Assembly (NCBI GenBank): GCA_001724265.1
Contig: MEDY01000025.1
Location: 62,001-126,000 of the forward strand
Direction of reading: 5' to 3'
DNA from: Rhizaria sp. SCN 62-66
Lineage: Eukaryota
DNA: 64,000 nt
The notes under the pieces were generated by a model that saw only the letters and a program-made list of their open reading frames with translations, did not search any database and was not told the DNA's origin. Of the stretch, positions 27,182-64,000 are shown one piece after another. Positions within the stretch are counted from its first letter, which is position 1; each line of letters opens with the position of its first letter. A program made the translations under genes and the position numbers.

Positions 27182-30100
27182 ATGTCCTGCTCTCAGCCGC
27201 AGCAGCAGCAGCCGACAAGCAGCAGCAGCCCTCCTGTTAACTCAACTGCAGCAACTGCCGCAGCGTCCGCTTTAGGGGCGATGACAACGAGGAGCTACGC
27301 CCATGACGACAGCGACGACGAGTTCGATGATGACGATCGCGATAACGATCACCCGCCGACCGACGACGACGAGTGCGGCGACGACTACGACGACGATGAC
27401 AACGATGAGAGCGAGACAGACGGCGATTGCGACAGAGCCTACCGCACCGCTAGAGCTGCGGCTGGCTACAACGCGAGAACGAGCAACGGCCCAGTTTCGC
27501 CGCGCACAAGGTCCAACAACTCAACCAACTCGAGCAGCTACCAGCACCACACACACCAGCAACAACAACAGCAACAGCAGTAGTCTCAGGCCCAGTCTCA
27601 GTCCCAAGCTGTCTCTACTTACACTGCGTCTACTCACGACGGTGTTTCCGTCCCAACCGACCTCTCAGGCACTTACATCGGAGGCACTGATAACGCCGCG
27701 GGCGCCTACACGCACACTCAAGCTTCAAGCGGCTTGTTGCCGTATCAACAGCAACCGCTGCAGCGCAGCTCGTCCCCTGCTCACAGTCACTTGAGTGCGC
27801 ACAGTCAGCTGAGCTCGGTCTCACAGCAGTCTCTGGACGAGAGCGGCACGCATCCGCATCCGCAGTCTCAGTCTCAGTCTCAGTTTCAGTCTCAGTCACG
27901 GGTGCAGCCGCATGTGTTGCCACAGGCTGGTCACGGGTACAGTAACAACAACATCAACAACAACAACAACGGCGGCGGCAGCTCTCAGTTCGCTCTCAAC
28001 ACCCAGCATCAGCCTCAGCTTCAGCAGCAGCCACAACAGCATCCGTCCCAGCCGCAGCCGCCGGGTCTAAGTACCCCCGCTCTAAGTACCTCTGCCAAGG
28101 CGCCCGCCCGCGCCCCGCGCCGCGTGACCGAGGACCTGCTCGAGCGGCGCCTGTTGCAGCACGACTTTGTGTACGTCAAGTGCGACGGAGACTGCCCCGC
28201 CGACGGCATTGCCCCCTCGGCTGCGAGCGCACACAGTACCGCGAGCACCAACTATACCCCCAACTATACCAGCAACACTGGTTACGCGCGCGTAGGCAGT
28301 GCCGGCGCTAATCATGCGACGACCGCGAGCGCGGCGCGTGTGAGCGGCACGGGCGGCGCTGCTGGATCTATTTCTGACATTGTGGCGACTCAGGCGACCG
28401 TGAGTGCGTTTCACGCTGATGTGGACCGCAAAAACAACAGTTTTTCTCCGAGTTTGAGTGAGGCGTCCACTGTCACCGTGTCGGTGCCGCCGCCCGCAGG
28501 CGTTCACAACAATATCAACAACAACAACAATCTCAACAATACCAGCAATACGAACACGTGCTACAACAACTTTGCTGCCAGCGCCGGTGCCAGTGTCGGG
28601 GCGAGTGCGAGTACCGTTTACTCTTGGAATCCTCCGGTAGGTTCCAATCACGCCCACAGTCGAAGTGCCGTCTCGCGGGCTGTAAGTACCCCCGGGGTAA
28701 GTACCCCCGGGGTAAGTACCGCTGCTAGCCCCCGCAGCAACGTCACGAGTCTCAGCACCGCCCACTCGGCCGCGCTAAGTACCCCCTTAGACAGTGCAAG
28801 TACGCAGACGCAGCTGTCCCCGAGTACGCCCCCCCACGTGTTCCCCTCGTCGCCCCAGCCACAACAGCCGCGGTCACCAGAGAACGACTTCGCCAACTAC
28901 AGTACTAACAACAACCATAACGGCCATAACAACAACCACAACGGGGATAACGCTGATGCGGGCAACGCTGTCACCGCCACCAGCAGCAGCGCCAACAGCA
29001 CCACGACTGCGAGTAGTTTGGGCAGTGCCGCTGCGAGTCCGAGGGCTGTTAAGGCTTCGAGCGCGTTGTCGATGCACACGCCTGAGCGTGTTTCGACTGT
29101 GCCGATGCTGCCAACGCCAGAGACCGGAACTGAGGCTGAGACTGACGCGGAGTCCCTGACGGGGGGGCTGAGGACTGTTGGAGTGAACGACATTGCTCTC
29201 GCCGTCTCCCCGCAGCAGCAACAGCAGCAGCAACAACAACAACAACAACAACAACAACTACAACTGCAGCAGCAGCAGCAGGTATCGAGAAGCAGTGCGT
29301 GTGGCTGCATTGCCACTCAGCCCGACGGTGTAAGTACCCCGGCCGCGAGTCCAAGTACCCACTCAGACTCCACGGTTGCGAACCGCAGCAACGTTCTCGC
29401 TAACAGCGCTAGCAGCCCGAGTGCCGGTGTCACTACCATGAGCACTGGTGTTGGCTATGTGAATGAGCTCGGTAACATCAGTGAGGCAGACTCACCTCCG
29501 TTTGCCTCCATGTCACAGCTGCCGCAGTCTCAGTCTCAGTCTCGGCCGGCTACAGCATCGTCTTCGAGCTCTAACCCGACTGCGACTGGGATTGGGGCTG
29601 GGGCTGGGATCGGTGCTACAGCGATGTCCGCCGCCGCCGCCGCCGTGGCCGCCGCCGCTGGCTCTTCCGCCACAACCACGGGCACTCCGGGCGCGGGCTC
29701 CAGCAAGCTGCGCTTCGCGTGCCGCCCCTCGGCAGTGCTCGTGGTCAAGAAGCACAATAACAGTCACGTGTCCTCGGACATGGCGCTGCTATGCGACTTC
29801 CTGATCCACACCTGCGGCCTGACGGTGTTTGCCGAGCCCCTCGTGGTGGCCAATGAGCCCGCGCTGCGGCACCTGACCCCCTTAGACCCCGCGCACCCGG
29901 GTAAGGGGGTCGACTTCGCCATCACGCTCGGCGGTGACGGCACGGTGCTGCATTACAACTCGCTGTTCAAGGCTGGACGGCCGGTCCCGCCAGTTGTGTC
30001 GTTCGCGCTCGGCTCGCTCGGCTTTCTGACGCCGTTTCCGTTCTCCAAGCACAGGGAGGTGATCGCAACCATCTTGCGCTCGTATTGTAGCAACAATAAC

Positions 30101-31087
30101 ACTGTGAGCGGGAGTGTCACACCCTTGAGCAGCAGTCCGCCCGCAGCCGCAGCCGCTGGGAGCAGCTTGCAACAACAGTCGCAGTTTGAGGATAGTGGCA
30201 ATATCAGCGGCAATATTAGCAGCAGCAGCAGTAGCAGCAGCAGCAGTAGCAATGGCAACGGTGTCAGCGCCACTACGAGTCTGAATACCAATAGCATTAG
30301 TGCTCATGGTAACGCCGGTGTGACCGTGAACACCAGCAACAGCAACTCTCTCGGTACTGTGATCTCCAGTCCAAGCGAGAACGCTTCCGTGTACGTCAGT
30401 GCCCGTGTCAGGCTGCTGTGCCGCGTCGTCAAAGCGCCTCGCAACAATAACAACAATAATAACATCAATATTAGTCACACGAACGCGAGGACCGGCGCGA
30501 GCTCCTCTGTCGTTGATGACACCAACAGTAGTAGCACTCTTAGCAGTACCAGTACTCTCGTGGGCGGCTTAACTTCTCCCGCGACTGTGGTGAGCACCCA
30601 CCAGCCGCTGAACGAAGTGGTGATCCAGCGCAACCTCGTCCCCTCGATGGCGCTGCTGGAGCTGTTCGTCGACGGGCACTTCGTGACGACTGTGCGCGCG
30701 GACGGACTGATCGTGGCTACGCCGACCGGCTCGACGGGCTATAGTATGAGTGCGGGGGGGCCTATGCTCGCCCCGTCGACGCCCTCGATCGTGATTACGC
30801 CGCTTTGCCCGCACAACCTGTCGTTCCGTCCCGTCGTCGTGTGCGACGCGACGCTCATCCGCGTGCGAGTGCCGCCGACGCTGCCGGCCGACTCGCCGCC
30901 GCTGACTGCGTCCTTCGACGGCCGCAGCGCCGTGGAGCTGTACCCCGGTGACAGCGTGCAGATCTCGGTGTCGCATTTGCACGTTCCCAGCATCGTCTTC
31001 ACCGAGTTCAACTGCGAGTGGTTTAAGAGCATCAAGCATAAGCTGCACTGGAACAAGTCCTTTTTGGACCGGCCACCGAGGAAATAA
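27182..31087 (+). CDS. NADK: ATP-NAD kinase with long low-complexity N-terminal extension (~1300 aa if TAG 27581-27583 is read as sense)
   Basis: NAD kinase motifs are VDFAITLGGDGTVL, SFALGSLGFLTPF, PLNEVVI, ADGLIVATPTGSTGYSMSAGGPM, ITPLCPHNLSFRP, SFDGR and WFKSIKHKLHWN. ORFs 27152..27583 and 27734..31087 share one frame separated only by a TAG. Stop is TAA. The start at 27182 is inferred. Confidence 0.9.
28682..28720 (+). repeat. 15-bp tandem repeat GTAAGTACCCCCGGG x2.6 inside NADK (encodes VSTPG repeats)
   Basis: Read directly from the sequence. Confidence 0.9.
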
Positions 31088-32030
31088 GTAAGTACAATGT
31101 CCTATGTACGGATCCATATCAACACATTAAGTCCTACCGCACTACTACGTAGTATCCATATAAGAAATACAAAACGATTTTTGTCCCTTAGACACGTGTG
31201 TCTCAGTCACGAGGGATGACCAAACAGGACATTGTTAGGAGGCATATAAGCAATTCCTATTGCTGCTGCTATGTTTCTATGTCTTGTACTCACATGGTGT
31301 AAGTGCCTTTCGTAATTGCAATACTTTAGTCTGATTGTCTCCGGATCACGAATCGCTTGCACAAAACAGCACAACAAGTAGCCCACTTTATTACTACATA
31401 TTCACCACAATAACCGGCATGATCACACTGTGGCCGTCATAAGAGCTCTACAAAGGCTGTATATTAAGTATATTTAAGATTTGTAGATATAATCAACATC
31501 CATGCTCGATATAGTGGCAATGACACACCACACCACATTAAAGATCTCTTAGTAGCCCAAAGGCTCAGGGTAGAATTGCCGGGGGCGAGAGAAAGCGAGA
31601 CTAACGGAGCGTGCGATATTTATTGTTTTAGGTATTTATTAAGTCGATTGATAACAAATCGACTCATATTCATGCCATTTTTTATTGGTGACTTTGATCG
31701 TTCCCTATATTTCCACGTTGAAACATATATATGCGTCATGCGTAAAGCTTTGTACGGAGATGTTTTTATTATTACATGTAGATTGTATGTGGACATTGTA
31801 TGTTGATACGTAAGAATGACATTATTCGTACGTATTTATATTAGATCGGTATTGGGTAGAAATGAATTTAAAACAACGACAAAAAACAACAACGAAAACA
31901 CTGAAGAGTATCACACGTGCGTGACCTGGCTGGTGATCAAGTCATCACAGGTGAGAGTATGGCTGCTGGCGTCTGGTTGTTATGTCTTGTCAGTTTTGCT
32001 GTCGCTGAAGTCCGTATTGCTGTTTTTGCT

Positions 32031-35000
32031 TCATTTTGGTTCTCGGTGTGAAGTGTCAGTAATATGAACAATGCGTACTGACATCATTCCGCCTTTGTAG
32101 ACTTCTAAGGCCTCTTGATAATCGTCATCGTCGGCAAATGGCACCGGGGTGATATCCATAATATACAACAGCTTGTTTTCCGTCGTTTGAGAAAAAACGT
32201 AAACGCAGCAATCGACGGAATCAAAAGATTTGTGGCTGTCACTGTTCCCACGTTTGCGGATTTTGGTGCTGTTGACATCACGCTTGCGCTTGCTTTCGGT
32301 TTGCTTCCGCAATGCAGATTCGACTGTCTTTGTCAGCTTCTTAACCGTCCGATGCATTGCGCCCATGCGAAGAGCACACTTGCCAGATCGCGCAAGTCGA
32401 ATCAGTCCGACAAGCGGATTGCCGGCGACTCCCGTTGGAAATTGAAGCAATGCTGACTGAAAGTGAGGTTGCGTCGAGAATTTGACGTCAAAGCGCCACG
32501 CAAAGTTTGCATACGAACAAGTGCTGTGAGCAGAAGAATCTGATTTCTGTGTGGCAAGCGTGATTTCATCACGGATTTCGACAGCTTTCCTGGCGATCTT
32601 TTTGATGAATGCCTTCGAATCTAGCTCGCCATCAATAACTGTCACGCGTCGGTTCAATGAGCAATCCTGATTGCGGTAGATATGCGTCATGTCTACGTCG
32701 CCCTAACTGTATAGGGTGCCACTTTCGGTGACCAGATCATACGGTTTATGATGCTTGCGAAAAAGGAGTGGGAGCTCATCTTGACCCTCCACATCCTTGC
32801 CACCACGAACCAGAGAGTACATAGAGCGCAGCATGCCAGTAGTTCCGTGGTATGCAACTTGGTCAAGAAGCCAGTACGGGGCCTCTGGACTTGCCCACTC
32901 TAGATCGCAGTTGAGATGGCGTTGATAAGCTGGGCTGTCATCCATAGAGTTAGTGGCACGAACACACACATCATGTTTGCAGTTGCTTAGCCACACTTGT
33001 GGCGACCAAGCGATAGGGGGCTCGCTACTTGAGGGCTCGATTGTCCAGATGGCATGTGACAGCTTAAACGCACTTGTACTGACAGTTTTATTGTCGTACA
33101 AGACATGAATTATATTATTAACACTGCTAACAGAGCTTAGCTTGCTCAATGCTAGCGCGTCAATCGCGGTGATTGCATCCTTTAGGCGAGTACGAACGGT
33201 CGCTTCACTCTGATCCCCACATGCAGCTTCCAAGGCAAACTTGAAATCACCTTTTGCATGTTCGACAGCATCGTCCACTTTTGGCGAATAGAACGTCTTA
33301 GTGAGTTCAAAGGCTTCCTCGATCTCCTCTGTTTTCCAGGCATATGACCATAAAGGAACGAAATTTGCAACAGCACTGTCGGTTGCTGACTTGCAGATGT
33401 TACTGTAACGCTCCAAATAAGGAGGCGTTGATATCACAGTTGTTGCTGCAGCCGTCGCGCCATGTACAGGCAGGCCGTTGTCGCAGCTAGAGTCAAAGAG
33501 ATACAGCGTGTTTTCGTGAGCCAACTTGAGCTTGACTTCGTCGCGATCAAGCGCTTCAACACTATCAGGCAAGAAGGAATCGGAGTCATCGGTCGACGCA
33601 GCGTAGTGATGGATATCATTATTCGGAAAGTGGCAGATCACGTTCATGTTGAGCTTGAAGCGCGCAATGTACCACAACAAGTTCAGCATCGCAGACTTGC
33701 CCGTGCCAGGCGGGCCGCGCACAATGAACGTGGTTCCAGGAACAGAGCGGTCAACCTTGCGCGTGCTCAAGTGAGTCACGAGACCTTTGTAAAGACCGTT
33801 ATGCGACTTACGCAGCAGCAACCTCTCGATAAAGGCGTCGTTGGGACCTGTGCCGCTAAAGGGAAAGAAAGCACCCTTAGGTGCGTCAAGCGTGTGGAAA
33901 AAAGTTGAGGTCGAGTCAAACGTCATTAGAGCATGAGCCTTGCTAAAAATCTCAGCGTAAGCTCGAGCAACACTTAGCTGAGTAGCGGCCGCTAGCCGCT
34001 GCTTGTATGCTTTTAGCCTGGCCTTGGCCTGTGCCTGTGCAGCCTTAGCTGCGACAAGTTCGCTGTGTGCTTTTAGCCGGTTTGAGGCGTCGGTCGCCTT
34101 ATTGAGCGTCGCATGTGCATTGTTGACAGAACTCGTTTTTTCCACGAAGCTGTGCTTTACTGCGCTGAGAAGGCGAGCTAGCCTGGCGATACTTTTTGCG
34201 GTCAAGGGTGCCCGTGCGCCTAGCAGTGCCAGTACACATGAGTACACGTGGAAAAAATCGAGAAGTACAAATGCAAAAGTATGAATATGTGAGATATTGA
34301 TAATGTTCGATAAACATGCCAATGATATAGATGGCAACAATATGTTGATTCATTATCTCCTTCAAAGTTAATCGTGAACAATTAATTGGCGACGTACGCC
34401 TAAGATCCGGCAACATTGCTTCCAGCTATTTTTCAGCATCTTCCCGTGCACAGTTTGCTTGCCAAATCTAGAGTACAGCGTTAGAAAGAGGGCCATTTGT
34501 TTCATCCGAGACATTGCTGCGCTAGAAAGAATAGCTCATCATAATGTACCCTTGAAGGGTAGATTCAAGATACTCAAGCTATTCGGAAAGGGATTCCATA
34601 CTAGGGTTTTCCAGCAACTTACCTTCTTCAATCTACTCTATCTCTCGTCGAACCCTGTTGCACTCTTGTTTGCATTTTTTTATCTCAGCAGCTAGCCACT
34701 ATTCTTCAAACTCCTATTGTGCGTGCTCCATCAGGGTATCGCGCCTCGGCCCCGCAGCTTCATGCTCGTCGATTTTCGCTTTGTAGATTCGTTCCTTTGC
34801 GTGCTCGAGGTCACGCTCAGCTGCGAGCCCCTTCTACAAAGCAGATCTCAGAGTGTTAGGCTCGAATTCAGGGTACTCCCCTTCGTCGATGGTTGAAAGC
34901 ATGGCTTCATCTGCAATTGTAGAAGGACGATATTAAGAAATACATTTAATATATTATTATATTGCGTCGAAGCGGGGATTTTAGGGCACAATGAGTGGAT

Positions 35001-35882
35001 AGTACTAGTATTACAAAAGAGAAAAACATATATCGAATTTGCGTCTACGTATTCGGAAACAAGTGATTCAGTTATGTTGCAAGAGTGACGTACCTTCAGT
35101 ACTGCTAAGAGAGCGGTGAGTGCTTGCGGTAGCAGAGACGTTGAGTCGAAGGGGCAAAGACGAAAATGTACGAGTGAAAAAAGACGCTGCACCTCCAGTT
35201 AGGGCCATCGATGATGCGTGACTGTTCTTGTTCTAGTTGGTATTAATAGGGATGTTGAGGCGCGGAGTGCGGGATGCTGCCCTTGCACTTGTGACAGCAA
35301 TGTCCTCGGCGTTGTCGTTGTCGCAGAATGGTGCCTTCTACAGATGCCAGAATATCGAAGGGGAGAGAGCCGAGTGAAATACAGTGTGTTTGTGAGACCA
35401 AGAATAGCAAGAGAGCAAGAGGACAAGCAAAGTACGCTGATATGAAAATTGGGCATACAAGTCGGAGTACAGCTTCAAACAAGACAACGCATTTTGTAGC
35501 AAGAGGCGACGGTAAATCACATACGCAGTTACTTGCACGGTTGACAGAGGCGTCTAACTTATGACTGATGTTGGTTTGCACTGCATCTGTGTCCTTGCGG
35601 ACACGCGCCAGGGCTACTGCTGCAATGGCGAAAGACGGTGTAGAAGAGCAAAGAAGGTAACCTATTGGGAACAAAGCATATGTGATCTTCCGAGTCGTGA
35701 GACTTTCGTTTGAAAACAGTGCCATTCGCCTCCTGGGGAGAGCTCGAAGTACGAGTTAAGGAGGCCAAGAGTGGCAAGCCCCAGTGTTCCCAATGAATTT
35801 ATCGGGCGAAGATGATAATTGAGGATGAACACGTACCCACTTTGTTTGTCAGTAAAAATCCCTTGGCAGTTCTACCGAGCAT
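32031..35882 (-). CDS. Crinkler/RHS-type (CR) protein: N-terminal coiled coil, P-loop NTPase and possible degenerate REase-like C-terminus; proposed exons 35882..35837, 35619..35525, 35337..35094, 34910..34398, 34219..32031 (1028 aa, 10 in-frame TAG)
   Basis: Walker A FIVRGPPGTGKSAMLNLLW, Walker-B-like TLYLFDS, TVISTPP..ERY..ICK and VPLWS...EEI follow the CR-NTPase pattern. Four GT-AG introns (35620..35836, 35338..35524, 34911..35093, 34220..34397) have matching phases and give a 3087-nt spliced frame with no internal TAA or TGA. The first two exons and the 3' end are less certain; another GTACGC donor is possible near 32078. Confidence 0.65.
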
Positions 35883-36868: not shown

Positions 36869-38310
36869 TTATTCCTTCAGCTGTTGCTGTTGTTTTTGTT
36901 GTTGTTGTTGCAGCTGCTGCTGCTGCTGCTGCATCAGCGCACGCCACAGCCTGCGTTCCTTGCGCGCCTCGCGCCTGCGGTTAGCAGCTCGTCTCAGCCC
37001 GTCTTCGTGGAACTCCCGGCTCGAGGGCCAGTTCTTGATCTCGCTCATCATCATCTCACCTACGACCCGGCCCTTGCCGCCTCCCCTACCGCCACCGCCG
37101 CCGCCGTCGCGGGTGACAGCGTCGCACGATGACGTAGCGTCGCCATGGTGGTGCCTGTGCTTGTGGTGGTGACGAAGCTTGCTACTGCCGCCCATGCCGC
37201 CGCTGGCGCCGCCGCCGCTGCTGCCGCTGCTGCCGCTGATGGTGGCGGAGATCGTAGCCCGAAGCGCGCGCACCGACTGCGACTGCACGATGGCCTGCGC
37301 CAGAGCCTGGGGCAGTCCCAGTCCTAGTCCCAGTGCCGGCGGCGGCGGCAGCGGCGTCAGCGGCGGCGGAGGCGTTGCGCTTGACGCCACTAAGGGCGAT
37401 AACGACACCGCAGCTGACGACAATGCAGAGCTGGCAGTGTTGCTGTCGTCGGCAGTCGAGTCAGCGTCAGTGGGCGTGGGGGCCGTTGCAGCGGCAAAGC
37501 CGTCAAACACAGTGTCAGTGCCGTCGCCATACGTGTCCCGTCGCTCATTGTCACTGCCTTCTTCACTGTCATCGCCGGTCTCGCCGATTTTAGTCGCATT
37601 GTTCGGAGTTGCGCCAAGTGCACCCGTGTTGCTGTCGTCATCGCTGGAACCACCACTTGCACTGCTGCTCCGACCAGTGCCATCCGAATCAGAGAGAGAG
37701 GATGACACATCGCCTGTAGCAACAGCTGTTCCACCAGTCGCAACATTCTTTCGGCCGCGCTTGTTTGCCATGACACCAGAGGCGGATACAGACGAGGTCG
37801 CAGCCGCTGCCGCTGCAGTCGCGGCGGCGGCGGCGGCGGAGGTAGCAACAGCGGCCTTGGCTACTGCAGCCGCTGCCGCTGCTGCCGCTGCTGCCGCCGC
37901 GGCGGCCTCTGCGCGCCACCATGGGTCGCCGCCCCATTCCCACCCCCACCAGCCACCTCCGCCGCCGCCGCCGCCGCTGCTGCCGCCGCCGTCATTGTCG
38001 TCATCGTCGTCGATGTCGGGGCCGAGGCCGGGTACGCGTGGGGGCCACCTGCGCTGCTGCTGCTGCTGTGCGTTGCGGGTATTGACTGAGCCTGCACGGC
38101 CCTTGCCAGTCGCCCCCGCGGCGTTAGCATGGCCACTGCGAGTGTTCTTGCTCTTGCTGTTGTTGCGTTGGTTGTTGTTAGCGGGACCGAGACTGGCGTT
38201 GTTATTCGCGGCGCCACCGTAGCTGGAGCTGTAATACCCACGCTCGGCCGCTGCAAGGCATAGTAACGCGTACTCGCGGCCAAGGGCGAGACACATGCGG
38301 TAGTGCCTTC

Positions 38311-38342
<32 letters not shown>

Positions 38343-41300
38343 GCATCACAGTCGTTGCCATTGCTAGTCAAGTGACTCTGTTGCTGATCAGCAGGGCTAG
38401 TCGCAGCGGCAGCAGAGGGGTCAATGGCCCTTGCGGCGGCTACCATCACACGGACAGGCTCTATGGGCCACTCTGCACAAGCGGGGCTTACACTCGCCGC
38501 AGCCTTGCTGCCGTTGTTGCTGGCATCCGTCGCAGCGACTACGAGAGCAAGTGCTGCGCACCGACGCATTGCAGAAGTCGCCTGGGACAAAGACGACACC
38601 ACCACCGCAGTCGCCTCGGCGTCGGCCTCAGCCTTCGCCTTAGCGGCAGCGGCAGCGGCGGCACGTTTTGCCTCGGCGTCGGCCAGCGCGGCGGCCTTCG
38701 CTACCTCCGCCTCTGCCTCTGCCTCTGCCTCAGCGTCGCCGTTGCCGTTGCCGTAGGCGTCAGGGGAGCTACGACCAGGAGAGTTGCCGCCGCCGTCCAT
38801 TACCAGTGGTTTGTTGGCGCCAACAGCCGCCGCTCTGGGGGTAGGAGCCTGGCTTGGAGCCTGGCTGTGAACTCGGCTGTGGTAGTTCCCCGCTTTCGTC
38901 GCCGTTTTACTGGCGTTGCGCGCGCCGCCACTGCCCCTGCCGCTGCCGCCGCCGGCCAGCGCGTCGACGGCTGCAGCCACGGCTTCGTGGCCGCCTTGGC
39001 GTCCGCTCAACCCCGCGCCCACGGCCACCAGCAGCGCGTGCAGCGCGGAGGCGGCTTGAGTTAAATCGGCCAGGGAGTACACGGGGCGGGACAACAGCTC
39101 AATGAGGTCGGCATCCGGGTTATACAGCGCAGGGCTACTTCCATTGCACGAGCTACTTACATTCGCGGCGCTGGGACTCGCGGCGGTGTCACGACCAATT
39201 GTACTTGAGCTGTCGTTGTTACCAGCAGAAGAATCAGCCTCAACACACACGTTTGCCGCTTCAGCGACGCTAGCGCCCGTGACCATCGCGAGATTGGCCA
39301 CGAAATTTTCACTGGCGACGGGTCCCAGCCCTAGGGGGCGCGCCGCGCCCAGCGCCAGCGCCAGCGCCAAAGTGCGCGCCCTTTCAGCACCGTTCACACT
39401 GGCACTCGGCTCCCTCGTACTGTTCCTGCTCGTCGCGTTGTCGCTGCTGTTGCTGTTATTGTTATTGTTGTTGTCGTTGCTAGCATTGGCAAGGTCGTTG
39501 GCGTTCGCGGCGAGCGTCAACACATGTGACAGCGCCTCCGTCTGCAGCCGCGCCCACCACCTGGGTCCGCCCCCGCCGGCACTCGACGCGCCGACACCCG
39601 AGCCGCCGCCGCCACCGCCGGTGGAACTGCTGGTATTTGCACCTGAAGCACCACCGGCGACGGTAGCGCTAATGAACGGCCGCAGGAGCTGCTGTCGGAC
39701 CGAAAGCGTCCACCCGGGGCGCGCCGTGTTGCTGCTGCTGCCGCCTGTGGAGGAATATACGGACACAGATGCCGACGCAGAAGGCGACTGTGCCGGCGGC
39801 GGCGAGGGCGACAGTGTGCTCAGACTAAGACCAGGACGAGTGGCGTCTAAGTGGGTACTTACACGCAGCGCACTGCCGTCGCCGTCAGCCAGCTTGCTCC
39901 GCCCATCGGCTTCAGCGGCCGCCCGCTCAGCCGCTGCGACCGCGGCCGCCCTCGCCGCCGCTGCTGCCGCGGCCGCTGCCGCGGCCGCGGCCGCCGCGCG
40001 CGCGTAGGTGGCGGCGGCCCGGGCTCGCGCGAGGCGGCGGTGCCAGGTGATGGCGACCCGCGATCGCATACGGCCCGCGGCGGCCGAAACGCGGGCCAAG
40101 AGGCGGACGACGGGAGTGCTGTCGCGGCGGGCGAGCAGGGCGAGGACGTGCGCCCACCGTAGTAGCGGCGGACGCTGCGCAATCGTAGACTGCGCAGTTG
40201 ACGTATGTGACTGTGCGATGGAGCCCTGCTGAAGAGAAGACTGCTGCGCCGAGAGACTGTGCGCAGCTGCTGCCGAATGAGAGTGACCGTGGTCGTGGGG
40301 AGGAAAAGCGGGGTTCGAGGGGACTGGGACTGTCGCAACGGTGGCAGCGGAAGCGGTGAAGACTGGGTGAGAGTCGTACTGGTACACGACGCCTGCCCGG
40401 CGCCGGTGGGCTGTCAGACGCGCCGCGCGGGCGGCGATGGAGCCCGGCGCGGCGGCGTCGGTGCTGTAGAGCGCCACCAGAGAGCTAGTTGCACTGGCTG
40501 CGCTGGCAGAAGTCGTGAGGGCAGGAGACTGGGTGGCGACGACGGCTGATGAGAGAAATGCCGCGGGTTGAGTGTCAAGGGTGACGGCTGATGAGAGCGA
40601 GGTCGATGGAGGAGGGAGCAAGCCTGGCAGTGACGACGATGCTGAGAGGGGTGAGGCATGTGCTACAAACTGAGAAGAGGCTGACAGAGACGCGGAGTCA
40701 GTGGGGGATGCAAGTGGCGCGTGCACAACAATAGGAGTGGGACCAACGTTGCGTGACTCGCCCTCTGTCTCAGCCGCGGAGGCTGCGGCGGCTGCCTGCG
40801 CCAAGACGGCGCGCGTGTGGCGTTTGTGGCAGTAGAGGCAGTCCAAGGCGTGGTTGCGATGGTAGCCGAACAGCTCATCGCCATTGTCGCCACCGATGGC
40901 GCTACTGAGACCGGCACTGCCGCTGACGCCATTGACAGCCGCGTTGGTGTGATTAAAAGCGTTAGAGATTACGGTGATGTCAGCGACACCGAAGGCGGAT
41001 AAGGGGCCATCGGGGTGACTGAGAGCTGGGTGACTGTGGGCAGCCATCGCGGCGCTGTGGCAGCGGCAGGTGCAGTGCGCAGACTGACTCACTTGTTGTT
41101 GTTGTGCGAGGAGGGAGACTGTAGTGAGATCAACTGCAGAGTAAGGGAAACCACCAGTGCCACTTTGTCCACAAACAGGGCTCACTGAAACGGAGTTACG
41201 GCCAACGCCGTTCGTGTTGGTCGCGGAGCAGGTGATCTTGCTCGTCGTGTCAACCATAGCAATGCTCTTGCAATTGCTTGACTCCGGGAAGTTTGACTCT

Positions 41301-47300: not shown

Positions 47301-47749
47301 AGAGGCAGCAGAGGAGAGTGTTTGTGTAGCGCAGTCGCAAACGTATACGCTGCGTTGGCGTCATGATAGCACCGACCCAGCTTCATCGCAGCAGCAGCGG
47401 TCAGCGCGGTGATGCGAGAGCGAGAGCTGGAGCTGGAGTGCAACTGCGAGCCAGAGCAAGAGCCAGAGCCAGAGGCAGCAGTGTCAGTGGTGTTTGAGTC
47501 GTCGTCGTTGTTGTAGTGAACTTGTTGTTTGCGGCTCGCAGCAGCGGGCGGCGGCAGTGGCGGGCCGTGCACCCTGTCGACCGCGCTCAACGCGCTCTCG
47601 CAGACGCCAGCAGATGTCTGCGCTGCCGCGCAGCCAGAGTCAGGGCCGCTGGAGTGACCGTGAGGGTGACCGTGGGCGGGGGCGGAGGGAGGGGGCGGCT
47701 GTGTCGGCCGCTGGAGGAGTTGCTGCCTGCCGTCGCTGGGGGGCGGCAT
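36869..47749 (-). CDS. Giant (~3626 aa) intronless low-complexity protein of unknown function
   Basis: A single 10.9-kb open frame runs from ATG 47749 (MPPPSDG) to TAA 36869-36871, with the same Ala/Ser/Asn/Gln-rich style as neighbouring genes. No domain recognised. Confidence 0.75.
45600..45683 (-). repeat. Imperfect 18-bp tandem repeat encoding (A)H(G/S)HS(D/V) units
   Basis: The plus strand shows about 4-5 copies of a GAGTGAC(C/T)GTG(A/G)GCATCT-like unit. Confidence 0.75.
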
Positions 47750-48204
47750 CGCAGTCACAAAGCGCGGTCAGCGGCTCTTAAGCAACGGGTGCGGTGTGGA
47801 GGGAAGAAAAGCACACGCTTGGCTGTTGAGATGAAGTGGCGCGAGCGTGTGTCACGCTGACAGAGAGAGCTGCGTGAGGCGAGAGACGTAGGCCGGGAGA
47901 GGGGAGGCGTCTGGGAGGTGAGTTGTTGCCGGTAAGAAATATAATTTTGAAAATGTTATTAACACGCACAGAAAGAACTCGTGGTACTGAAACGCACTCT
48001 GCTTACGGAGAGTGGTGTTCGATATCTTATGTTTTCGAGAGGACGAAGTGTCCGGACGAGTTGGTGGCCACAGTCGGGAACTTTGAATGAGGTGTGATTT
48101 GAATAGCAAATATATAACCACATAGACCGTCAAGCACGTATGGGACACAATCTTGCGATTTAGTTTGCTTACAAATTATTGTTTTTCTTTTTAATTCACT
48201 TGAC

Positions 48205-51200: not shown

Positions 51201-52697
51201 TTTGCCGACGATATCAGCGGCGGCTTACGTTCCCGTCGCGGCGGCCTAACTTCCGTCCCCACCAAGTCAGTCCAAATGGCGACCCTCGGTCACAGCTCCC
51301 CCACGCCTCGCCTCACCACGACTGCAACTGGAGCTGGAGATGGCCTGACCCCGCAGCGGAGGCGGCAACAGCGCTCTGACCGCCGCCGCTGTCGCTGGCT
51401 CCTGGTTGCGGCGGCGCGGGCGGCGCTGAGGTGCGGCCTAACTTTGAGTGACCTCGCCGCCGCGAACCAGCAGTCTGCCGCGCTGAATGAGGAAGGGAAA
51501 GCAGAGACTGGTCTTCCTCCCCAGCGCCAACACGGTCACTCTCCTGCCGCTGCCGCTACGGTTACTGCCAGTGCCAGTGTTGCGGCAATGGAGATGGCAG
51601 CAGCTGCGAGGCTTGCAGGCCGCTCCGCTGATGCCGGTGTAAGTACCTCCCGTCTAAGTACACCTCGCCACATCGGCAGTGGTTCTGCCTCCTCTAAGGG
51701 TACCCCGTCATCTAAGGACCTTCTCACGACAACGACGGACAGAAAGGCTCAGTCTCCGTCTAACTCTAAGTACTCGCCCCCGTCTAAGGGTGCCCGCGCA
51801 GCCCGGTCGGCGGCCGCCTCGGCCGTCGCCGCCTCGGCCGCCGTGGAGCTGGCCGAGCGGCTCCGCGTTTTGATGGCACAGAGCAGTGGAAACAGCGATG
51901 ACGGCAACACAGCGACTACCAGTGCTCACGGTGGTAAGACGGTGGGTACACGTGGGACGCGTGGTGGTGACGGTACTGCTGACGTCACGATTCTCATCAC
52001 GGATTCCGATTCCGACTCTGTTGATTCTGACGCACCTAAGAGCAAGACAACTGCTAACAAGGGCAAGTCAAATACGGCTACTGCCAGCCGTGGCCGCTTA
52101 ACTTCCCCCGCCCAAGACGTTCTATACTACGAAGACTCCACCGACAGCAATGAAGATGAAGATTGCACTGGCAGTGACGATGACGCCAGTGCAGGCGCTG
52201 ACGATGCGTTGAGTGACATGAGTGTGCCGGATCTCACTGACAGCGGTGATGATGACAGCGACGACAGTGGCACTGACATCAAACCGAAGATCACTGCTCG
52301 CCTCAATAGCAAAGGTGCTTCTATCACTAGTGCAACTGCTGCGAACACTTTCAGGACTGCGTCTCAAGTGCAGGGCTTAGCGCCCCGCAACAGGGCCCCA
52401 TTGACTGTGGCTAACACTGTGCCGGCGGCAAACAATGTGACTGTGTCTAACACGATGGCGTCGAAGACCACAGGGTCTAAGAGCAATGTGACTGTGGGCA
52501 AGGCGACTGTGGGCAAAGGGCCGCTGCCTCCGCCGCCGCCGCCTCTGAACCCCACTGCTCCACCTAACAAGAGCCAGAGCCAGAGCCAGAGTCAAAGGCA
52601 GTCTGGGCCGTTACCCCCCGGCTCTGCTGCTGCCTTAGCTCAGGCACTTCGCTCACAACAACAACAAGAGCAACATCAACGTCCGTCTCAGCAGCAG

Positions 52698-52728
<31 letters not shown>

Positions 52729-55700
52729 GAGTGAGTGGACAATCCGGTGGGAATAACTCTGCTGGGTTTGACTTCATGCAGTTTGCCGACTACTCTCAGA
52801 TGCAACAGCAGCAGCAGCAGCAACGCGTCGCTGTCGACCCTTTCGCCACTGCGGCAGCCAACGCCCGCCGCGCCCACAGTCACTTAGCGAGTACCAGTGC
52901 TGCTCACGGTCACTTGGGGGCGATCAACGGTCCCGGCCGTAGCCGCATTGGAGCCGCTGCCTCTACCTCTGTAGCTGCCTCTACATCTGTACCTACGTCT
53001 GTGCCGACATCCGCTATGCCAACTGGCGCATCCAATGCAAAGACAACCTCTGACGCGGCCAAGCTTAGCGTCGAGGCGGCTAAACTTACCGCCGTCGACG
53101 AGATGCGTGCATTGATGGCCGAACTTGACCTCGATATCAAGCTTGCTAAGGAAGCACGGGAGCGGCTTAAGTTAAAGCAACAGCGCCGCACTGGTGGCAA
53201 GCCTCTGCCTGAGAGTGACCACAGTAATGACAGTGGCAGCGGCGATGACGATGACGATGATGACGATGATGATGATGGTGCAGCTTCTAAAAACAAGCGC
53301 CGCGAGGAAGTTAAGCCGCGCTCGGGTAAAGGTAAGCCGCCTCGCTTGTGCGTACCTGTTCGTGTGCACTTGCCTGTTGCGCCGATGACTGTGGGCGGTG
53401 ACGGCTTGACTTCCTACAACGCCGTGCTTCTGCCCTTAGACGGCGAGGATACTGGTCTAAGTACCTTTTCCAGTGCTGGTGGATCTAAGGGCGCTATCAC
53501 CGTGTTGCCCTCATTGCCTATCTCGACACTGGCACCTTTCTCGCTGCCCACGGTCACCAGCAACTACATGAGCATCACCAGCAGTCAGAACACGGCTGCT
53601 ATCAACGCGCCCGCAACTGTTTCAGCTGCGAGCGCGGGTGCGCGTGCGGTTAGTGAAGGATTGGTGTCATTTCAACCCCCTGCACTGCCGCAACTGCTGT
53701 CCCTTGTTTCGACTCTGTCGTCACAGAGCAGCTCGCAGTCGCAGGGCTCACAGCCGCTCGAGTCGGATGCGGCGGCGGCGGCAGCGGCTTACTTTACCGA
53801 TGTAAGGGCCTTCGCGCTCACACTGCTTGAGCGTGCTGTGTCACTCAACAACAGTACAGCCAGCAACAACAGCAGCAATGCAACAAGCGCCACGAGCCGC
53901 TTTAAGGGCTCTGCTAATGCGACTGCTGCGAGCAATACGGGCGCTAATGTAAGTGCCTCATCTGCCTCAGGTGTAAGTGCTGTCACGAACCGTGTTGCGA
54001 CGCTGTTAGCTGCTATCTCTGCCTTTGACAGCTTTTGCGCTCAAAGCCACGATAACAAGCACAACTTCAACACTCTGAACTCTGTCGCTGGCGGTGGTGG
54101 CAGCGCGACCCCGCCCTCACCCAATCGCAATAACAACAACAACAGCAGCGCTAGTAGCAGCTCTAATACCACTGCTGCTGCTGCTGCGGCAACTGTTGTC
54201 GCGCGTGCCTTAGCCTCGCATCTAAGGACCAGCTCCAAGAACAATCTAAGTTCCTCCTCTGTGAGCAGCAGTAGTCTAAGTAGTACCACCCCCCTTAGTT
54301 ACGTCAACCTCGCCCGCGCTCTTCGTTTTATCGCCTTGATCGCCCACCGCCGCCGCACCCCGGCCTCTCCAGCCCACGGTCACCCCTCCAGTTTGCCGTC
54401 GCCGCCTTGCTCTCACGCCCGCGCGTCCCGCCCCGTCGGCGGTCTGCGTACAGTCTCGCTCAACGTGCCGCTGCCGCCGCCGCTGGCCGCCACTGCTGCG
54501 GCGGCCGCGGCGGCGGGGGCCGTGGCCGGTGTGCTGGCGGGGGTGGAGCGGGCTCTGGCAGCGCTGCAGACTGAGATCAGGGACGCGGCGCTTGCTCAGG
54601 GCGGCACGGGTACCGGCAAGACTGCGAGTGCTGTTGCTGCGCAAGTCACGAGTACTCACCATATCACGGACGCTGCTGCTGCTGTTGCTCATCAGCATGG
54701 TGTTGTGAATGGAGCTGGCTTCACTGCGATTGATATGGGGGCATTGGGGATGAGTGATGATGTTGATGCTGATCATGATGACAGTGATGGCCAATTTGAC
54801 CGCGCCAACAACAACAACAACAAAAACATTACATCCAATAGCAAGAGTAAGTCTGCTGCTGCTGCTGCTAAAGCGAGCAACAAGATGAGTTATGCATCAA
54901 GTCGTAACATTGATAACTACGCCACCGGTAATCACAGTAATGATGACGACGATGACGACGACGCTGAGGCCGGTATCCGTTCTCTTTCTCGTGACGCTGC
55001 TGCCAGTGAAGATGATAACGACGTGTTTTACGACTTGGACGCTGCCGTTCTTCAAGAACTTGAAGATGCTAACGGCGACGAGGACGATATGGACCTCGAT
55101 CTCGACAGTATTCAAGAACTTGAAGAAGATCCTGCTACTACAGCAGCGCGCGCGCAAGCGCTTGCATCTCGCCAGCTTGGAAACACCGGCACCGACACTG
55201 GCACTGGAGACGGCGCGAACGTTGCGACTGTCACCCATGCAGACACCACCATGAACGCGAACAGCATTGCCTCCAAGTCTAAGCCTCGCACACAGGCTCA
55301 GTCCAACACAGCTAAGCGCACTGCTGCTGTTAATGCATCTTCGCAGTTTCTGTCGTGCTCACAGTTGCAACTGCCGTCTCATGTCCCCGCCACGGCCCTG
55401 AGTGCGTTGCTCTCTCAGTCAGCCCGTGTCGCCCCCGCCCGAGCGCCCGCCCTCCCCGCACCCACACCCAAACCCAAGGCGCTCTCCTCTTCGTCGGCGA
55501 CCGTGGGCGGCGCGCATAGCAGCGGTGTGACCGTGAGCAGCGGTGGTGGCAGTGACGTGCTGACTGAAGAGACGGTAAGCAAGGGCCGTCTCCCGGCTGA
55601 GGCGGCTCCCCCGACCGCTGACACGCTAGGACTGATCAAGCTCTTGGCCAAGATGACTGCGCAGAGCGCCGCGGTTGCCGCCGTGGGACTTGCACTGCCG

Positions 55701-55814
55701 CTGCCGTGGGCGGTGTACGCGTGGAGTGAGGAAAAGGGGCGCAAGAGGGCCGCTGTGACCGGCGCGGCGTGGGTGCAAGCGGCCCTGTTCGTTGACGTCA
55801 ACACGCTTTCATAA
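48205..55814 (+). CDS. Giant (~2495 aa) low-complexity protein of unknown function; exons 48205..48441 and 48564..55814
   Basis: A phase-0 intron 48442..48563 (GTACGT...TAG) joins ...FHSTSA to SHPLHLEVFLPP in the frame of the 2413-aa ORF. Stop is TAA. There is a short predicted coiled coil (DEMRALMAELDLDIKLAKEARERLKLK); no domain recognised. Confidence 0.72.
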
Positions 55815-60916: not shown

Positions 60917-61661
60917 ATTCTCTCACACTCCTCCGCTACCCCCTGTACTGCGCCTCCCTTGTTGTGAAATCATGACGGGGAAGCGTGTGATGGGGGTGCG
61001 TGGCGCCGGGACGCGGGATTTGTGGTTGAAAATACGTGTTTCACCGTCATTTGCGGGAAACATTTCTCTACATCACAACGCTTGTGAGGCTATGAGTTTG
61101 ACTCTGATCGGTTGCTCTTAACTCGCACCCGTGTCCCGGAGGCCCACACCTGGGGGCGCTGCGCCGAACACACGCCGCCTTATCGTTGTGGTGTGTTGCG
61201 GGCGCCCTCGCGCGACTCTGTCTCTCCTAGTTGAACACACAAACAAACTCCCAAACCATCCAAGTATGGCACGTTGGCTTGAGTCCAACGGCGTTGCTTT
61301 GGATGGTGAGGGGGGCCAGAGTCAAGCTATCTATTCGATTTTATTTTGTTCATGCTCTTATTGCGTTTAGCTCAATACATTGTGCTTTATGTCATGCAAC
61401 CACCGTTTTGTGGTTTATATCGCTTCAATTGATGCTTGTGAGACTTGAGTTTTTCGGTCCCGGCTGTCATGGGCAGCTCGCTCGCGAGATGAGCGATAAA
61501 GCAATTTGCGCAGCGACCTCTAATGCCCTCTCTAAGAGCACCCTACCTGCGTTGAATAGTAATGCGTCACTAAAGTTACAATAATTACGAGCGCTTTTAT
61601 AACATATTTTACTCACATTCTCTCACACCCACAACTCTACCTCTAAACAGACACTTCTACC

Positions 61662-62340: not shown

Positions 62341-63206
62341 GCGGAAACGGCGAAGCACAGCGTTGCTGCTCTTGCTCTGCAGCAACGATGAGGATTGCAT
62401 AAGGATGTTCTTCCGTTGACAAGTCTCAATCGCCTTTGGTCACGGCAGCGTCCATTGCGTTTTTGCAGGTAATCCGTAGTAGTAAACGTGTGTTCACTAA
62501 GCGTATGCGCGATTTGGTTTAGCATGCGCACGTCTCAAGGTAAACACAACAAGTCTTAATTTATACCAATGACATCAGTCTCCTCTAAGCAGCCACACTC
62601 TATGTGGTGCTTAATAACGTGAACGACCATTGGTTCTCTCTATCTTTTCATCACTTTCTTACTTTCTCTAGCATAACACACGTGCTATCCGATCACAGCA
62701 ACAAATGCCAGTTGCGTACCCCGTACATTGGCACTGTTTGCTGTGTGTAAGTATGCACAACAAGTGTTCTGTTACCCCCTCCGTTACACAGTTATATCAG
62801 TCTCTCTGACACTCTGCTTTGTGAACTCGCAATACCTACTTGCATATGCACGTGCAGCATTCGATAACATTACCAACAACTGGCACTCTCAACCAGGTTG
62901 TTGTCCGTCGTCTTTGCTCTTGGCTTCAGCAGTTGGGACTGTTTGTCATATTTGTAGTGTGCCGTATTTTTAATCACATTGAAAACGATACTAATACACA
63001 ACATTAAACACAAAACAATGTCAATTGTTCATTATGTATTCAAATTGCTTAGTTCTACAACACTTTGGCCATCATACAGCAGACTCGCATTGCAGTCTCT
63101 CAACTTTTCACAATAACCGCCTTGCCTTCATTGCTAGCGCACAGTCAGTCACACGCACTCGCTTACAGTCACATTTTTTGCTGACTCAGCATGTTTGCCG
63201 ACTCAC

Positions 63207-64000
63207 TCAGCGGTTGGCCGCTAGCATCGCCGTCGCAGCCCCCACATGCCCCCCTGTCGCCTCGAGGGCCCTGACGGCGGCGGCCTTATCATAACCCAAA
63301 AGCACGAGATTCTCAGCCAAACCAGCGTACCGCGACTGCGACACAGCCGCCCCCGCCCCCGCCCCCACCGCCGCCGCTACCGCTACCGCTGCACTGCCGC
63401 TGCCACCCGCCAGCGACTGTGGCCCCAGAGGCGCCATCAGAGCCGACGGTGTGGCGGCAGCGGCCGCGGCGGCGGCGGCGGGGTCAGTCCGCCTGGGGTG
63501 GGTGGTGAGCCCGGCTACAGAGGCGTAGGGCAGCGGCGGCGCCACAGCGGCACCAGCGCCAGTGGGAATGTTAGTCGCGTGGACACTCGAAGTATAGCCG
63601 CCTCCGGAGAGGGGCGGGCGGGCACTATTGGTGCTGTTTCCGTAATTATTGTTGTTGTTATTGCTACTGCTAGTCCCCAGAGCCCTCGCAATCGCACTAC
63701 TCGCATTAGCGTTAGGATTAGCAGTGTTGGAGTTGGTGTTGCTCTGAGATGAGGCGATGGTTGCGACCGAGATGCAAGGTCCCGTGATGACACTGAGATC
63801 CCGACCGAGGCCCATCGCGTTCTGTAGCATCCCTCCAGTGCCAGCGCCAGAGCTGGCGCCAGAGCTGTTGGGGTTACGATTACGGCGCTGTCGCTGCTGA
63901 GAACGATGCTTCTGCTGCTATTTAGCTCCAGCAGCAGCAGCATCATCAGCAGCAGGACTCGCTCCAGTCGCAACATGCTCACGAGCATTAACGTCATTGC
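63207..64000 (-). CDS. Partial (5' truncated) protein with C-terminal UBA domain; in-frame TAG at 63918-63920
   Basis: The C-terminal YAGLAENLVLLGYDKAAAVRALEATGGHVGAATAML is UBA-like. The frame stays open to the window edge except for one TAG in ...GAK*QQKHRSQQRQ.... Stop is TGA 63207-63209. Confidence 0.7.

What the first reader, a model, noticed from the sequence alone, without database searches (positions are those of the whole stretch)
27182..64000. Non-standard nuclear genetic code: UAG appears to be a sense codon (probably Gln) while UAA and UGA remain stops
Seen in sequence: 12 in-frame TAG codons in three unrelated genes (NADK 27581-27583, ten in the CR-NTPase gene at 32-35 kb, UBA gene 63918-63920). 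None of these frames has an internal TAA or TGA, and none of the 12 genes here ends with TAG. Inference: UAG encodes Gln, because it occurs in or next to CAG/CAA runs and at positions where Gln fits coiled-coil-like text. Established knowledge: UAA and UAG are usually reassigned together. Uncoupled nuclear codes are rare; examples are UAG=Gln in the fornicate Iotanema and some phyllopharyngean ciliates, and UAG=Leu in an uncultured rhizarian. This GC-rich genome with 120-280 nt introns could be an independent origin, but I cannot identify the taxon.
Basis: partly seen in the sequence, partly recalled or inferred. Interest (0 to 1): 0.96.

Follow-up and report, generated by a model that had tools for sequence, protein, structure and literature searches.

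The report
TAG stop codon read as sense
In an uncultured wastewater eukaryote the stop codon TAG seems to be read as an amino acid in one fast-evolving gene family, yet its ordinary genes shun it, which may be a genetic-code change caught half-way.

Summary
The in-frame TAGs are real. Nine lie in a three-exon P-loop NTPase gene (35208..32031, minus strand), one in the NAD kinase gene and one in the UBA gene. None of 12 genes ends in TAG (7 TAA, 5 TGA).

TAG is not the end of the NTPase protein. Three homologues run through the column of TAG 32705, and the tail after it is homologous. Eight related metagenome loci carry 29 more in-frame TAGs and no TAA or TGA. In two close paralogue pairs 5-9.5 TAA+TGA were expected and none was seen, while TAGs arose at about the neutral number. 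Two other DNA assemblies carry the same TAGs.

Glutamine fits best, but arginine is not excluded.

Against an ordinary code change, six large neighbouring genes (13,782 codons, 386 CAG) hold no TAG, where about 126 would be expected if TAG were a neutral Gln codon.

Best reading (0.5): TAG is translated, probably as Gln, and is a poor terminator, but it is still costly and so survives only in weakly constrained genes. Rivals are family-limited or conditional recoding, or a relic copy from a TAG-recoded relative. No tRNA, eRF1 or whole genome could be examined.

The parts
35094..35208 (-). Exon 0 of the P-loop NTPase gene. ATG at 35208-35206, 38 codons plus 1 base, no TAG.
   Evidence: Sequence read. 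The GTACGT donor at 35093 is listed. The join to exon 1 keeps the frame (read by eye). Not confirmed by spliced reads.
34911..35093 (-). Intron 1, 183 nt, GTACGT...GCAG.
   Evidence: The same GTACGT donor stands at the ends of host exons at 5030+, 57607+, 58123+, 23382-, 24124- and 25646-.
34398..34910 (-). Exon 1, a coiled-coil-like stretch of 170 full codons. It has eight in-frame TAGs (first bases 34836, 34716, 34701, 34635, 34581, 34524, 34470, 34428), 0 CAG, 4 CAA and 0 TAA/TGA.
   Evidence: Shuffle test. The same letters are in DNA runs X2 and X4, and five of the TAGs are in a contig of polyA-RNA library X5.
34220..34397 (-). Intron 2, 178 nt, GTACGT...CTAG.
   Evidence: Homologue P0003 also becomes similar exactly from the residues that follow this acceptor.
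32031..34219 (-). Exon 2: a helical hairpin, an AAA+/STAND-like P-loop domain and a C-terminal domain. One in-frame TAG at 32705-32703; ends in TGA at 32033-32031.
   Evidence: Homologues. Fold. No Pfam family.
27182..31087 (+). NAD kinase gene with a long low-complexity N-terminal extension. In-frame TAG at 27581-27583, at the end of a CAG/CAA run. Ends in TAA.
   Evidence: Pfam NAD_kinase and NAD_kinase_C. There is no ATG in the 469 open codons after the TAG.
63207..64000 (-). 3' part of a UBA-domain gene, cut by the window end. TAG at 63920-63918 stands before CAG CAG.
   Evidence: Only 26 codons of context, so whether it is coding is open.
13637..22180 (-). Comparator: large exon of a TRAPPC8/Trs85-like gene, 2847 codons, 0 TAG. 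It stands for the six large host ORFs that hold no TAG: 1904-5134+, 5089-13023+, this one, 27584-31087+, 36869-47767- and 48564-55814+.
   Evidence: Pfam hits.

Best explanation
The organism is an uncultured eukaryote from bioreactor and wastewater samples whose lineage is unresolved. I propose that it translates UAG as an amino acid, most likely glutamine, and no longer relies on UAG to end proteins; UAA and UGA do that.

The change is not complete or not free of cost. UAG is kept out of ordinary genes as strictly as a stop codon. It survives where selection on protein yield and sequence is weak: in a fast-evolving, multi-copy family of coiled-coil plus AAA+/STAND-like P-loop NTPases, and as rare CAG-to-TAG changes inside poly-Gln tracts.

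Shown: TAG is passed through in the family, while TAA and TGA are purged. Inferred: the residue, the agent (a CUA-anticodon tRNA competing with eRF1), and that this holds genome-wide.
For: 1. The gene is intact apart from its TAGs. It has 939 codons in three exons, two GT-AG introns with the host's usual GTACGT donor, 9 TAG and 0 TAA/TGA.

2. P0005, P0008 and P0011 run through the column of TAG 32705, and the 223 codons after it align with them. That tail stays open in only 4 of 20,000 shuffles.

3. The family was examined in eight further metagenome loci. L003 and L007 were dropped as near-copies of L002 and L008, and L011 as bacterial-looking. These loci hold 5,409 codons with 29 in-frame TAG and 0 TAA/TGA, while the off-frames are full of TAA/TGA. 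After trimming probable 5' non-coding parts, 32 TAGs remain, including the window's 9.

4. Close paralogues evolve nearly neutrally (dN/dS 0.67-1.11, dS 0.19-0.28).
- L001/L002: 8.0-9.5 new TAA+TGA and 8.9-11.5 new TAG expected; 0 and 7 seen.
- L008/L010: 5.2-5.7 and 5.5-6.8 expected; 0 and 6 seen.
- Distant pairs show purifying selection (dN/dS 0.17 and 0.37).

5. Some TAG columns are shared between paralogues: L001/L006, L001/L005, L001/L002 and L008/L009/L010.

6. Residue.
- Partner codons at well-aligned sites are CAG/CAA at 4 sites, TGG at 2, GAG+AAG at 2, TCG at 1 and TTG at 1.
- BLOSUM sums put Q first: 8.1 against K 4.1 over 14 sites.
- The family-specific likelihood also puts Q first.

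7. The host's own genes: 0 of 12 stops are TAG. The NADK TAG joins an ATG-bearing stretch to 469 open codons that have no ATG. The NADK and UBA TAGs both touch CAG runs.

8. This is not an assembly error. Contigs of DNA runs X2 and X4, from other studies, carry exon 1 unchanged, at the same depth as the NADK region. A contig of polyA-RNA library X5 keeps five of the TAGs.
Against: 1. The six large neighbouring ORFs hold 0 TAG in 13,782 codons, with 386 CAG and 129 CAA. The synonymous T/C pair TTG/CTG is 132/405, so about 126 TAG would be expected if TAG were a neutral Gln codon (the expectation is my arithmetic). The smaller conserved genes also show none in their domains (bL20, QCR9, RhoGAP, HAD, Trs85).

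2. The published UAG-only lineages use UAG freely in conserved genes (PMC5304391, passages read).

3. In the family TAG looks cost-free. The proposed cost is therefore inferred only from its absence elsewhere.

4. Within the gene, exon 1 has 8 TAG and 0 CAG while exon 2 has 1 TAG and 8 CAG. This is unexplained.

5. No tRNA gene was found in the window or the loci. No eRF1 is available.

6. The RNA contig runs 11 nt into intron 2, so it does not show mature mRNA.

7. The NADK TAG is not covered by any listed contig piece of another run.

8. L001 and L002 share a TAG 35 codons before their TAA, and the tail differs at 9 non-synonymous codons against 1 synonymous. That TAG could be a true terminator.

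9. 0 of 12 TAG stops has a chance of roughly 0.03-0.07 if TAG ended 20-25% of genes (my arithmetic; the share is assumed).
Confidence: 0.5

Rival explanations
1. Family-limited or conditional recoding. TAG is still a stop for ordinary genes. The NTPase family is translated only when a suppressor tRNA is available, either stage-specific or carried by the repeat element that holds the family. Its TAGs would then gate its expression, as proposed for late genes of TAG-recoded phages.
For: TAG use is all-or-none between neighbours on one contig. In the family TAG is cost-free. The family is multi-copy, with 91-96% identical flanks between copies and a DDE_1 transposase fragment beside one copy. Its fold resembles STAND/AAA+ conflict-system NTPases, though weakly.
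Against: No tRNA gene was found in about 97 kb of window plus loci. The in-frame NADK TAG lies in a housekeeping gene. 0 of 12 genes ends in TAG. There is no shared sequence context after 32 TAGs. The phage parallel is recalled, not read here.
Confidence: 0.2
2. Relic copy. The window's organism uses the standard code, and its single NTPase gene came recently from a related organism in which TAG is a long-standing sense codon. It is silent here but too young to have decayed.
For: In this gene TAG/(TAG+CAG) is 9/17, the same as TTG/(TTG+CTG) at 18/34. That fits a gene at equilibrium under another code, beside neighbours with none. Its GC3 is 0.51-0.53 against 0.62-0.83 in the neighbours. Window and loci share no flanking homology.
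Against: Both introns have the host's GTACGT donor. Depth equals that of the neighbours in two other runs. There is no frameshift or TAA/TGA in 939 codons. 0 of 12 TAG terminators and the NADK TAG would both have to be coincidences.
Confidence: 0.12
3. Leaky termination without a dedicated tRNA. UAG is misread by near-cognate tRNAs (Gln, Lys, Tyr, Trp and others), so the residue is mixed and the yield is low.
For: Residues opposite TAG in paralogues are mixed (Q, W, E, K, H, R, S, L, A), and all lie in variable columns. Ordinary genes avoid TAG.
Against: Nine or more leaky stops in one gene would leave almost no full-length protein, yet the frames are kept free of TAA/TGA. There is no readthrough-type context after the TAGs. 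The mixed partners are also what the mutation spectrum predicts: the two transitions that create TAG, from CAG and TGG, account for 6 of 10 one-step sites.
Confidence: 0.1
4. Not a feature of translation. The alternatives are a decayed pseudogene family, a wrong strand or gene model, tiny introns that remove the TAGs, RNA editing to CAG, or an assembly error.
For: TAG-only open frames arise as antisense artefacts in this GC-rich window: 8 of 44 long ORFs. The plus-strand ORF 34378-34896 is the codon-aligned antisense of exon 1. Splicing is not confirmed by reads.
Against: Strand and frame are fixed by homology for exon 2 and for all the loci. Neutral decay would have given 5-9.5 TAA+TGA per close pair, and none is seen. 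Three assemblies agree, and the RNA-library contig keeps TAG. No GT...AG pair brackets the TAGs (read by eye). Editing would also rescue TAA and TGA, which are absent.
Confidence: 0.03

Closest known systems
UAG = Gln with UAA/UGA as stops: Iotanema spirale (PMC5304391, passages read); Hartmannula sinica and Trochilia petrani (PMC11687900, abstract read)
   Same: Only UAG is passed through. UAA is the main terminator and UGA the second. No TAG terminators were seen. Gln is the best-fitting residue.
   Different: In Iotanema 204 in-frame UAG were found in 126 conserved genes. Here there are none in 13,782 codons of six large genes, and UAG is almost confined to one family. The present DNA is GC-rich with large low-complexity genes, and its lineage is unresolved. 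tRNA and eRF1 are unseen.
UAG = Leu: Rhizaria sp. exLh (PMC5304391, passages read) and three uncultivated phyllopharyngean ciliates (PMC11687900, abstract read)
   Same: A UAG-only reassignment found in environmental or contaminant data. Terminators are UAA (56) and UGA (15), never UAG.
   Different: Leu fits poorly here: it is not among the eight best residues. In exLh UAG sits at conserved Leu columns of housekeeping genes (82 of 86 hyperconserved sites). Here TAG sits only in variable columns.
Context-dependent stop/sense codes (Condylostoma, Parduczia, Blastocrithidia; as summarised in PMC5304391, passages read)
   Same: A stop codon is read as sense inside genes.
   Different: In those codes the same codon still ends genes, and in-frame use is widespread. 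Here 0 of 12 genes ends in TAG, and only TAG is affected.
TAG-to-Gln recoding (code 15) in bacteriophages (PMC9523058, search listing and start of abstract only; its bias towards late genes is recalled, not read)
   Same: TAG is read as Gln in one set of genes but not in the rest of the DNA that shares the cell.
   Different: That is a virus in a bacterium. Here it is a spliced nuclear gene family of a eukaryote, and the family was not found in IMG/VR contigs.

Membership tests
UAG-only stop-to-sense nuclear code (TAG = Gln; TAA and TGA stop; like NCBI table 15) | In-frame TAG in protein-coding genes whose frames continue, with homology, beyond the TAG | tested here: met
   Window NTPase gene and eight related loci.
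UAG-only stop-to-sense nuclear code (TAG = Gln; TAA and TGA stop; like NCBI table 15) | TAG used as a sense codon across unrelated, conserved genes of the genome | tested here: not met
   0 TAG in 13,782 codons of six large genes, and none in the Pfam-matched parts of bL20, QCR9, RhoGAP, HAD, Trs85, RabGAP and NADK. Only single TAGs occur, in low-complexity parts of NADK and of the UBA gene. Only 64 kb could be examined.
UAG-only stop-to-sense nuclear code (TAG = Gln; TAA and TGA stop; like NCBI table 15) | TAG absent from true terminators | tested here: met
   0 of 12 genes: TAA 7, TGA 5. The sample is small and two of the stops are uncertain. One shared TAG near the end of L001/L002 could be a terminator.
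UAG-only stop-to-sense nuclear code (TAG = Gln; TAA and TGA stop; like NCBI table 15) | TAG aligns with Gln in conserved columns | tested here: inconclusive
   No TAG falls in a conserved column. Q is the best fit but R is close: -90.6 against -92.5 from 30 non-independent partner residues. BLOSUM sums give Q 8.1, K 4.1, R 3.6. TAG pairs with CAG/CAA at 4 sites.
UAG-only stop-to-sense nuclear code (TAG = Gln; TAA and TGA stop; like NCBI table 15) | A tRNA with a CUA anticodon, and an eRF1 altered in its stop-codon-reading motifs | not testable with these tools
   No tRNA was found in the window or loci. No genome is held, and there is no eRF1 gene in the window.
Context-dependent (ambiguous) stop/sense codes | The same codon both encodes an amino acid inside genes and ends genes | tested here: not met
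   0 of 12 terminators are TAG. One open case in L001/L002.
   No Pfam family matches the window protein or L001. The model (pLDDT 61) gives only weak AAA+/STAND matches: RFC, Cdc6/ORC, CED-4, NOD2 and AVAST5, with TM 0.13-0.20. No CR-specific model was available. The name is not confirmed.

The most novel reading that the evidence does not exclude
UAG is a quarantined codon. It is neither a working stop nor an ordinary sense codon. It is read as an amino acid but tolerated only in a rapidly diversifying STAND-like NTPase family that sits in repeat elements. Two readings follow. One is the long-postulated ambiguous intermediate of a stop-codon reassignment, seen in a living lineage. The other is a eukaryotic counterpart of phage recoding, in which in-frame UAGs gate translation of a conflict or selfish gene family.
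Probability: 0.25. Interest if true: 0.9.

Novelty: new variant of a known kind. Interest (0 to 1): 0.72.

Why it matters
Nuclear codes in which UAG changes meaning without UAA are rare. As far as I read, all published cases are finished reassignments, with UAG spread through housekeeping genes.

Here one contig holds a gene family in which UAG behaves as a free sense codon. Beside it are genes that exclude UAG as strictly as a stop, and none of them uses it to terminate.

If the organism does translate UAG, this is an independent origin in an unplaced, GC-rich lineage. It may also give a view of how a stop codon is captured: where the new codon first becomes tolerable, and what it costs.

There is a practical side too. 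Standard gene callers cut these genes into pieces. The database entries for this family (P0002, P0004, P0012) are fragments that end or begin at TAGs.

Tried and rejected
Searches that found nothing or could not run:
- The family is absent from IMG/VR contigs and from GTDB genome contigs.
- Exon 1 alone has no relative among proteins of 93-298 residues. Longer and shorter proteins were not searched.
- No tRNA and no Rfam family in the window or loci.

Taxon: the ESM Atlas hits and the NADK homologues do not place the organism. The best NADK hit is 87% identical and comes from an unnamed metagenome protein. After that come roughly 50% matches to green algae, a Cercozoa MAG, animals and fungi.

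Flanks of the related loci:
- Long GC-rich ORFs with TAGs, such as L001 3507-5012, show no codon periodicity in 36 mismatches against L003. I do not count them.
- The DDE_1 fragment on L003 has its TAGs outside the matched domain.

RNA:
- Library X5 covers the region only in patches.
- Its contig 34387-34647 reaches 11 nt into intron 2.
- Transcription, splicing and absence of editing are therefore not shown. Parts without cover say nothing.

An intron around the NADK TAG: the only GT nearby that could bracket it (27511) would shift the frame into a TGA, and the stretch after the TAG looks coding (read by eye). Rejected.

General C-to-T hypermutation of exon 1: 4 CAA are untouched and CTG/TTG is 4/3. 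Rejected as the sole cause of the TAG clump.

Leu, Glu, Trp or Tyr as the meaning: all score lower than Gln. One apparent TAG in L002 (opposite Ala) is an ambiguous base, not TAG.

Supplementary tables of the papers were not seen. They may hold UAG frequencies per gene class that bear on how unusual the skew is.

Full report
What the window is.

The window is GC-rich DNA (0.47-0.73 in 2-kb steps). It holds spliceosomal-type introns and several genes confirmed by Pfam:
- NAD kinase, UBA and RabGAP-TBC.
- Ribosomal_L20, UQCRX/QCR9, RhoGAP, HAD and TRAPPC-Trs85.

Near-identical DNA is held by bioreactor, wastewater and activated-sludge runs from several studies. No whole genome is held. The lineage could not be placed.

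The observation.

The NTPase gene can be modelled on the minus strand as three exons:
- Exon 0: 35208..35094.
- Exon 1: 34910..34398.
- Exon 2: 34219..32031.

They are joined by two introns of 183 and 178 nt, each starting with GTACGT. The same donor hexamer stands at the ends of exons of neighbouring host genes. The model has 939 codons, nine in-frame TAGs (eight in exon 1, one in exon 2), no TAA or TGA, and a TGA stop.

The NADK TAG (27581) joins 133 codons that begin with ATG to 469 open codons that contain no ATG. The UBA TAG has too little context. Twelve genes end in TAA (7) or TGA (5), and none in TAG.

Is it more than chance?

Exon 1 stays free of TAA/TGA in 13 of 20,000 shuffles. The tail after TAG 32705 does so in 4 of 20,000.

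This test cannot tell sense from antisense. 8 of the 44 long TAA/TGA-delimited ORFs of the window carry five or more TAGs, and most are antisense frames of GC-rich genes. The plus-strand ORF 34378-34896 is the antisense partner of exon 1.

The minus strand is taken as coding for three reasons:
- Exon 2's strand is fixed by homology.
- The splice joins keep the frame.
- Relatives carry the same kind of coiled-coil N-terminus on the same strand.

Is TAG passed through?

Only two proteins matched in the word-indexed search: the window's own product, cut at TAG 32705, and P0003 at 45% identity. The exhaustive search gave 12 proteins. Three of them (P0005, P0008, P0011) run through the TAG column and align with the tail behind it.

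A scan of JGI metagenome contigs gave 11 loci. In eight of them the family ORFs, delimited by TAA/TGA, hold 29 in-frame TAGs in 5,409 codons. I left out two near-duplicates and one bacterial-looking contig. With the window gene the total is 38 TAGs in 6,302 codons, against 87 CAG and 111 CAA. After trimming probable non-coding 5' parts, 32 TAGs remain.

Close paralogues differ almost neutrally (dN/dS 0.67-1.11). That allows a direct test:
- L001/L002: 8.0-9.5 TAA+TGA expected and 0 seen; 8.9-11.5 TAG expected and 7 seen.
- L008/L010: 5.2-5.7 TAA+TGA expected and 0 seen; 5.5-6.8 TAG expected and 6 seen.

TAA and TGA are therefore purged, while TAG accumulates like any tolerated change. Distant pairs show purifying selection (dN/dS 0.17 and 0.37), so the family is not dead.

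Contigs of two DNA runs from other studies carry exon 1 with no change at any TAG, at the same depth as the NADK region. A contig from a polyA-RNA library keeps five TAGs, but it runs 11 nt into intron 2, so it does not prove mature mRNA.

Which residue?

No TAG lies in a conserved column. In well-aligned sites of close paralogues the partner codons are:
- CAG/CAA at four sites.
- TGG at two sites.
- GAG and AAG at two sites.
- TCG at one site and TTG at one.
- CAC, CAT, CGT or GAT, two steps away, at three sites.

BLOSUM sums rank Q first. A likelihood built from the family's own substitutions gives Q -90.6, R -92.5, K -104.8 and E -112.3. The 30 partner residues behind that likelihood are not independent. 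Gln is the best guess, helped by the prior that UAG-to-Gln is the usual change (recalled). It is not established.

What does not fit a plain code change.

The six large ORFs around the gene hold 13,782 codons with 386 CAG, 129 CAA, 67 TTA, 50 CTA and no TAG. From TTG/CTG = 132/405, about 126 TAGs would be expected for a neutral Gln codon (my arithmetic).

In the NTPase gene, by contrast, TAG/(TAG+CAG) is 9/17, the same as TTG/(TTG+CTG) at 18/34. Inside the gene the TAGs are clumped: exon 1 has 8 TAG and 0 CAG, exon 2 has 1 TAG and 8 CAG. That split has probability 9/24310 by hypergeometric count (my arithmetic).

Published UAG-only lineages use UAG freely in conserved genes (PMC5304391, passages read). 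There is no shared context after the TAGs. No tRNA gene was found.

Reading.

The family evidence makes it very likely that UAG is translated in the cells that carry these genes. Three observations argue that the window's own organism does so:
- The gene has host-type introns.
- Its read depth equals that of its neighbours.
- No gene here ends in TAG, and NADK carries an in-frame TAG.

The strict exclusion from ordinary genes then needs a cost, such as residual termination at UAG. That cost would matter in genes under strong selection and would be invisible in a family that tolerates most amino-acid changes. I give this reading 0.5.

The rivals are:
- A suppressor that works only for this family or only at some stage (0.2).
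- A young relic copy from a TAG-recoded relative (0.12).
- Near-cognate leakiness (0.1).
- Artefact, pseudogene or mis-modelling, largely excluded (0.03).

The gene itself.

The gene has no Pfam family. The model (mean pLDDT 61) shows three parts:
- A confident helical hairpin.
- A P-loop domain followed by a helical domain.
- A poorly modelled C-terminus.

Foldseek gives weak AAA+/STAND matches. Copies in the metagenome loci share 91-96% identical flanks, and one sits beside a DDE_1 transposase fragment. The family therefore lies in repeated DNA.

Novelty.

My paper searches turned up no report of a UAG-only reassignment in a GC-rich non-ciliate lineage from wastewater, nor of UAG confined to one gene family in a eukaryote. 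There were four searches. Only listed titles and abstract starts were seen, apart from the three papers I opened. The claim rests on 64 kb plus about 36 kb of related contigs.

Noticed in passing
window 1904-5134, 5089-13023, 13637-22180, 27584-31087, 36869-47767, 48564-55814: Six ORFs of 1,076-3,632 codons are built largely of Ala, Ser, Gln, Asn, Thr and Gly runs. Two have no Pfam hit at all. All six end in TAA despite GC3 of 0.62-0.83.
   Followed up: partly
window 5030+, 57607+, 58123+, 23382-, 24124-, 25646-, 34397-, 35093-: GTACGT is the recurrent 5' splice site. A related locus (L004) has GTACGC at its intron, which suggests that the loci come from relatives of the window's organism.
   Followed up: partly
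L011 23-328: This contig looks bacterial (GC 0.69; MFS-, RidA- and amidohydrolase-like ORFs by eye). At its edge it has a 46% identical match to residues 165-275 of the NTPase. That could be a bacterial homologue of the P-loop core or a chimeric contig.
   Followed up: no
L003 6034-6561; L001 3301-3941 against L003: A DDE_1 transposase fragment lies beside a family copy. The flanks of two copies are 91-96% identical, and 28 of 36 mismatches are transitions, so the family sits in a repeat element.
   Followed up: partly
window 31430-31641 and 31189-31347: Runs X2 and X4 show a second haplotype at five positions downstream of the NADK gene. RNA library X5 holds a contig of a relative with 14 differences there.
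   Followed up: no
L001 and L002, last 45 codons of the family ORF: Both copies share a TAG 35 codons before the TAA. The tail between them differs at 9 non-synonymous codons against 1 synonymous, so this TAG might be a true terminator.
   Followed up: partly
window 14301-16592(+), 38086-39105(+), 22978-24333(+) and others: Antisense frames of the GC-rich genes form long ORFs with 5-7 TAGs and no TAA or TGA. This is a trap for any scan that looks for TAG-only open frames.
   Followed up: yes
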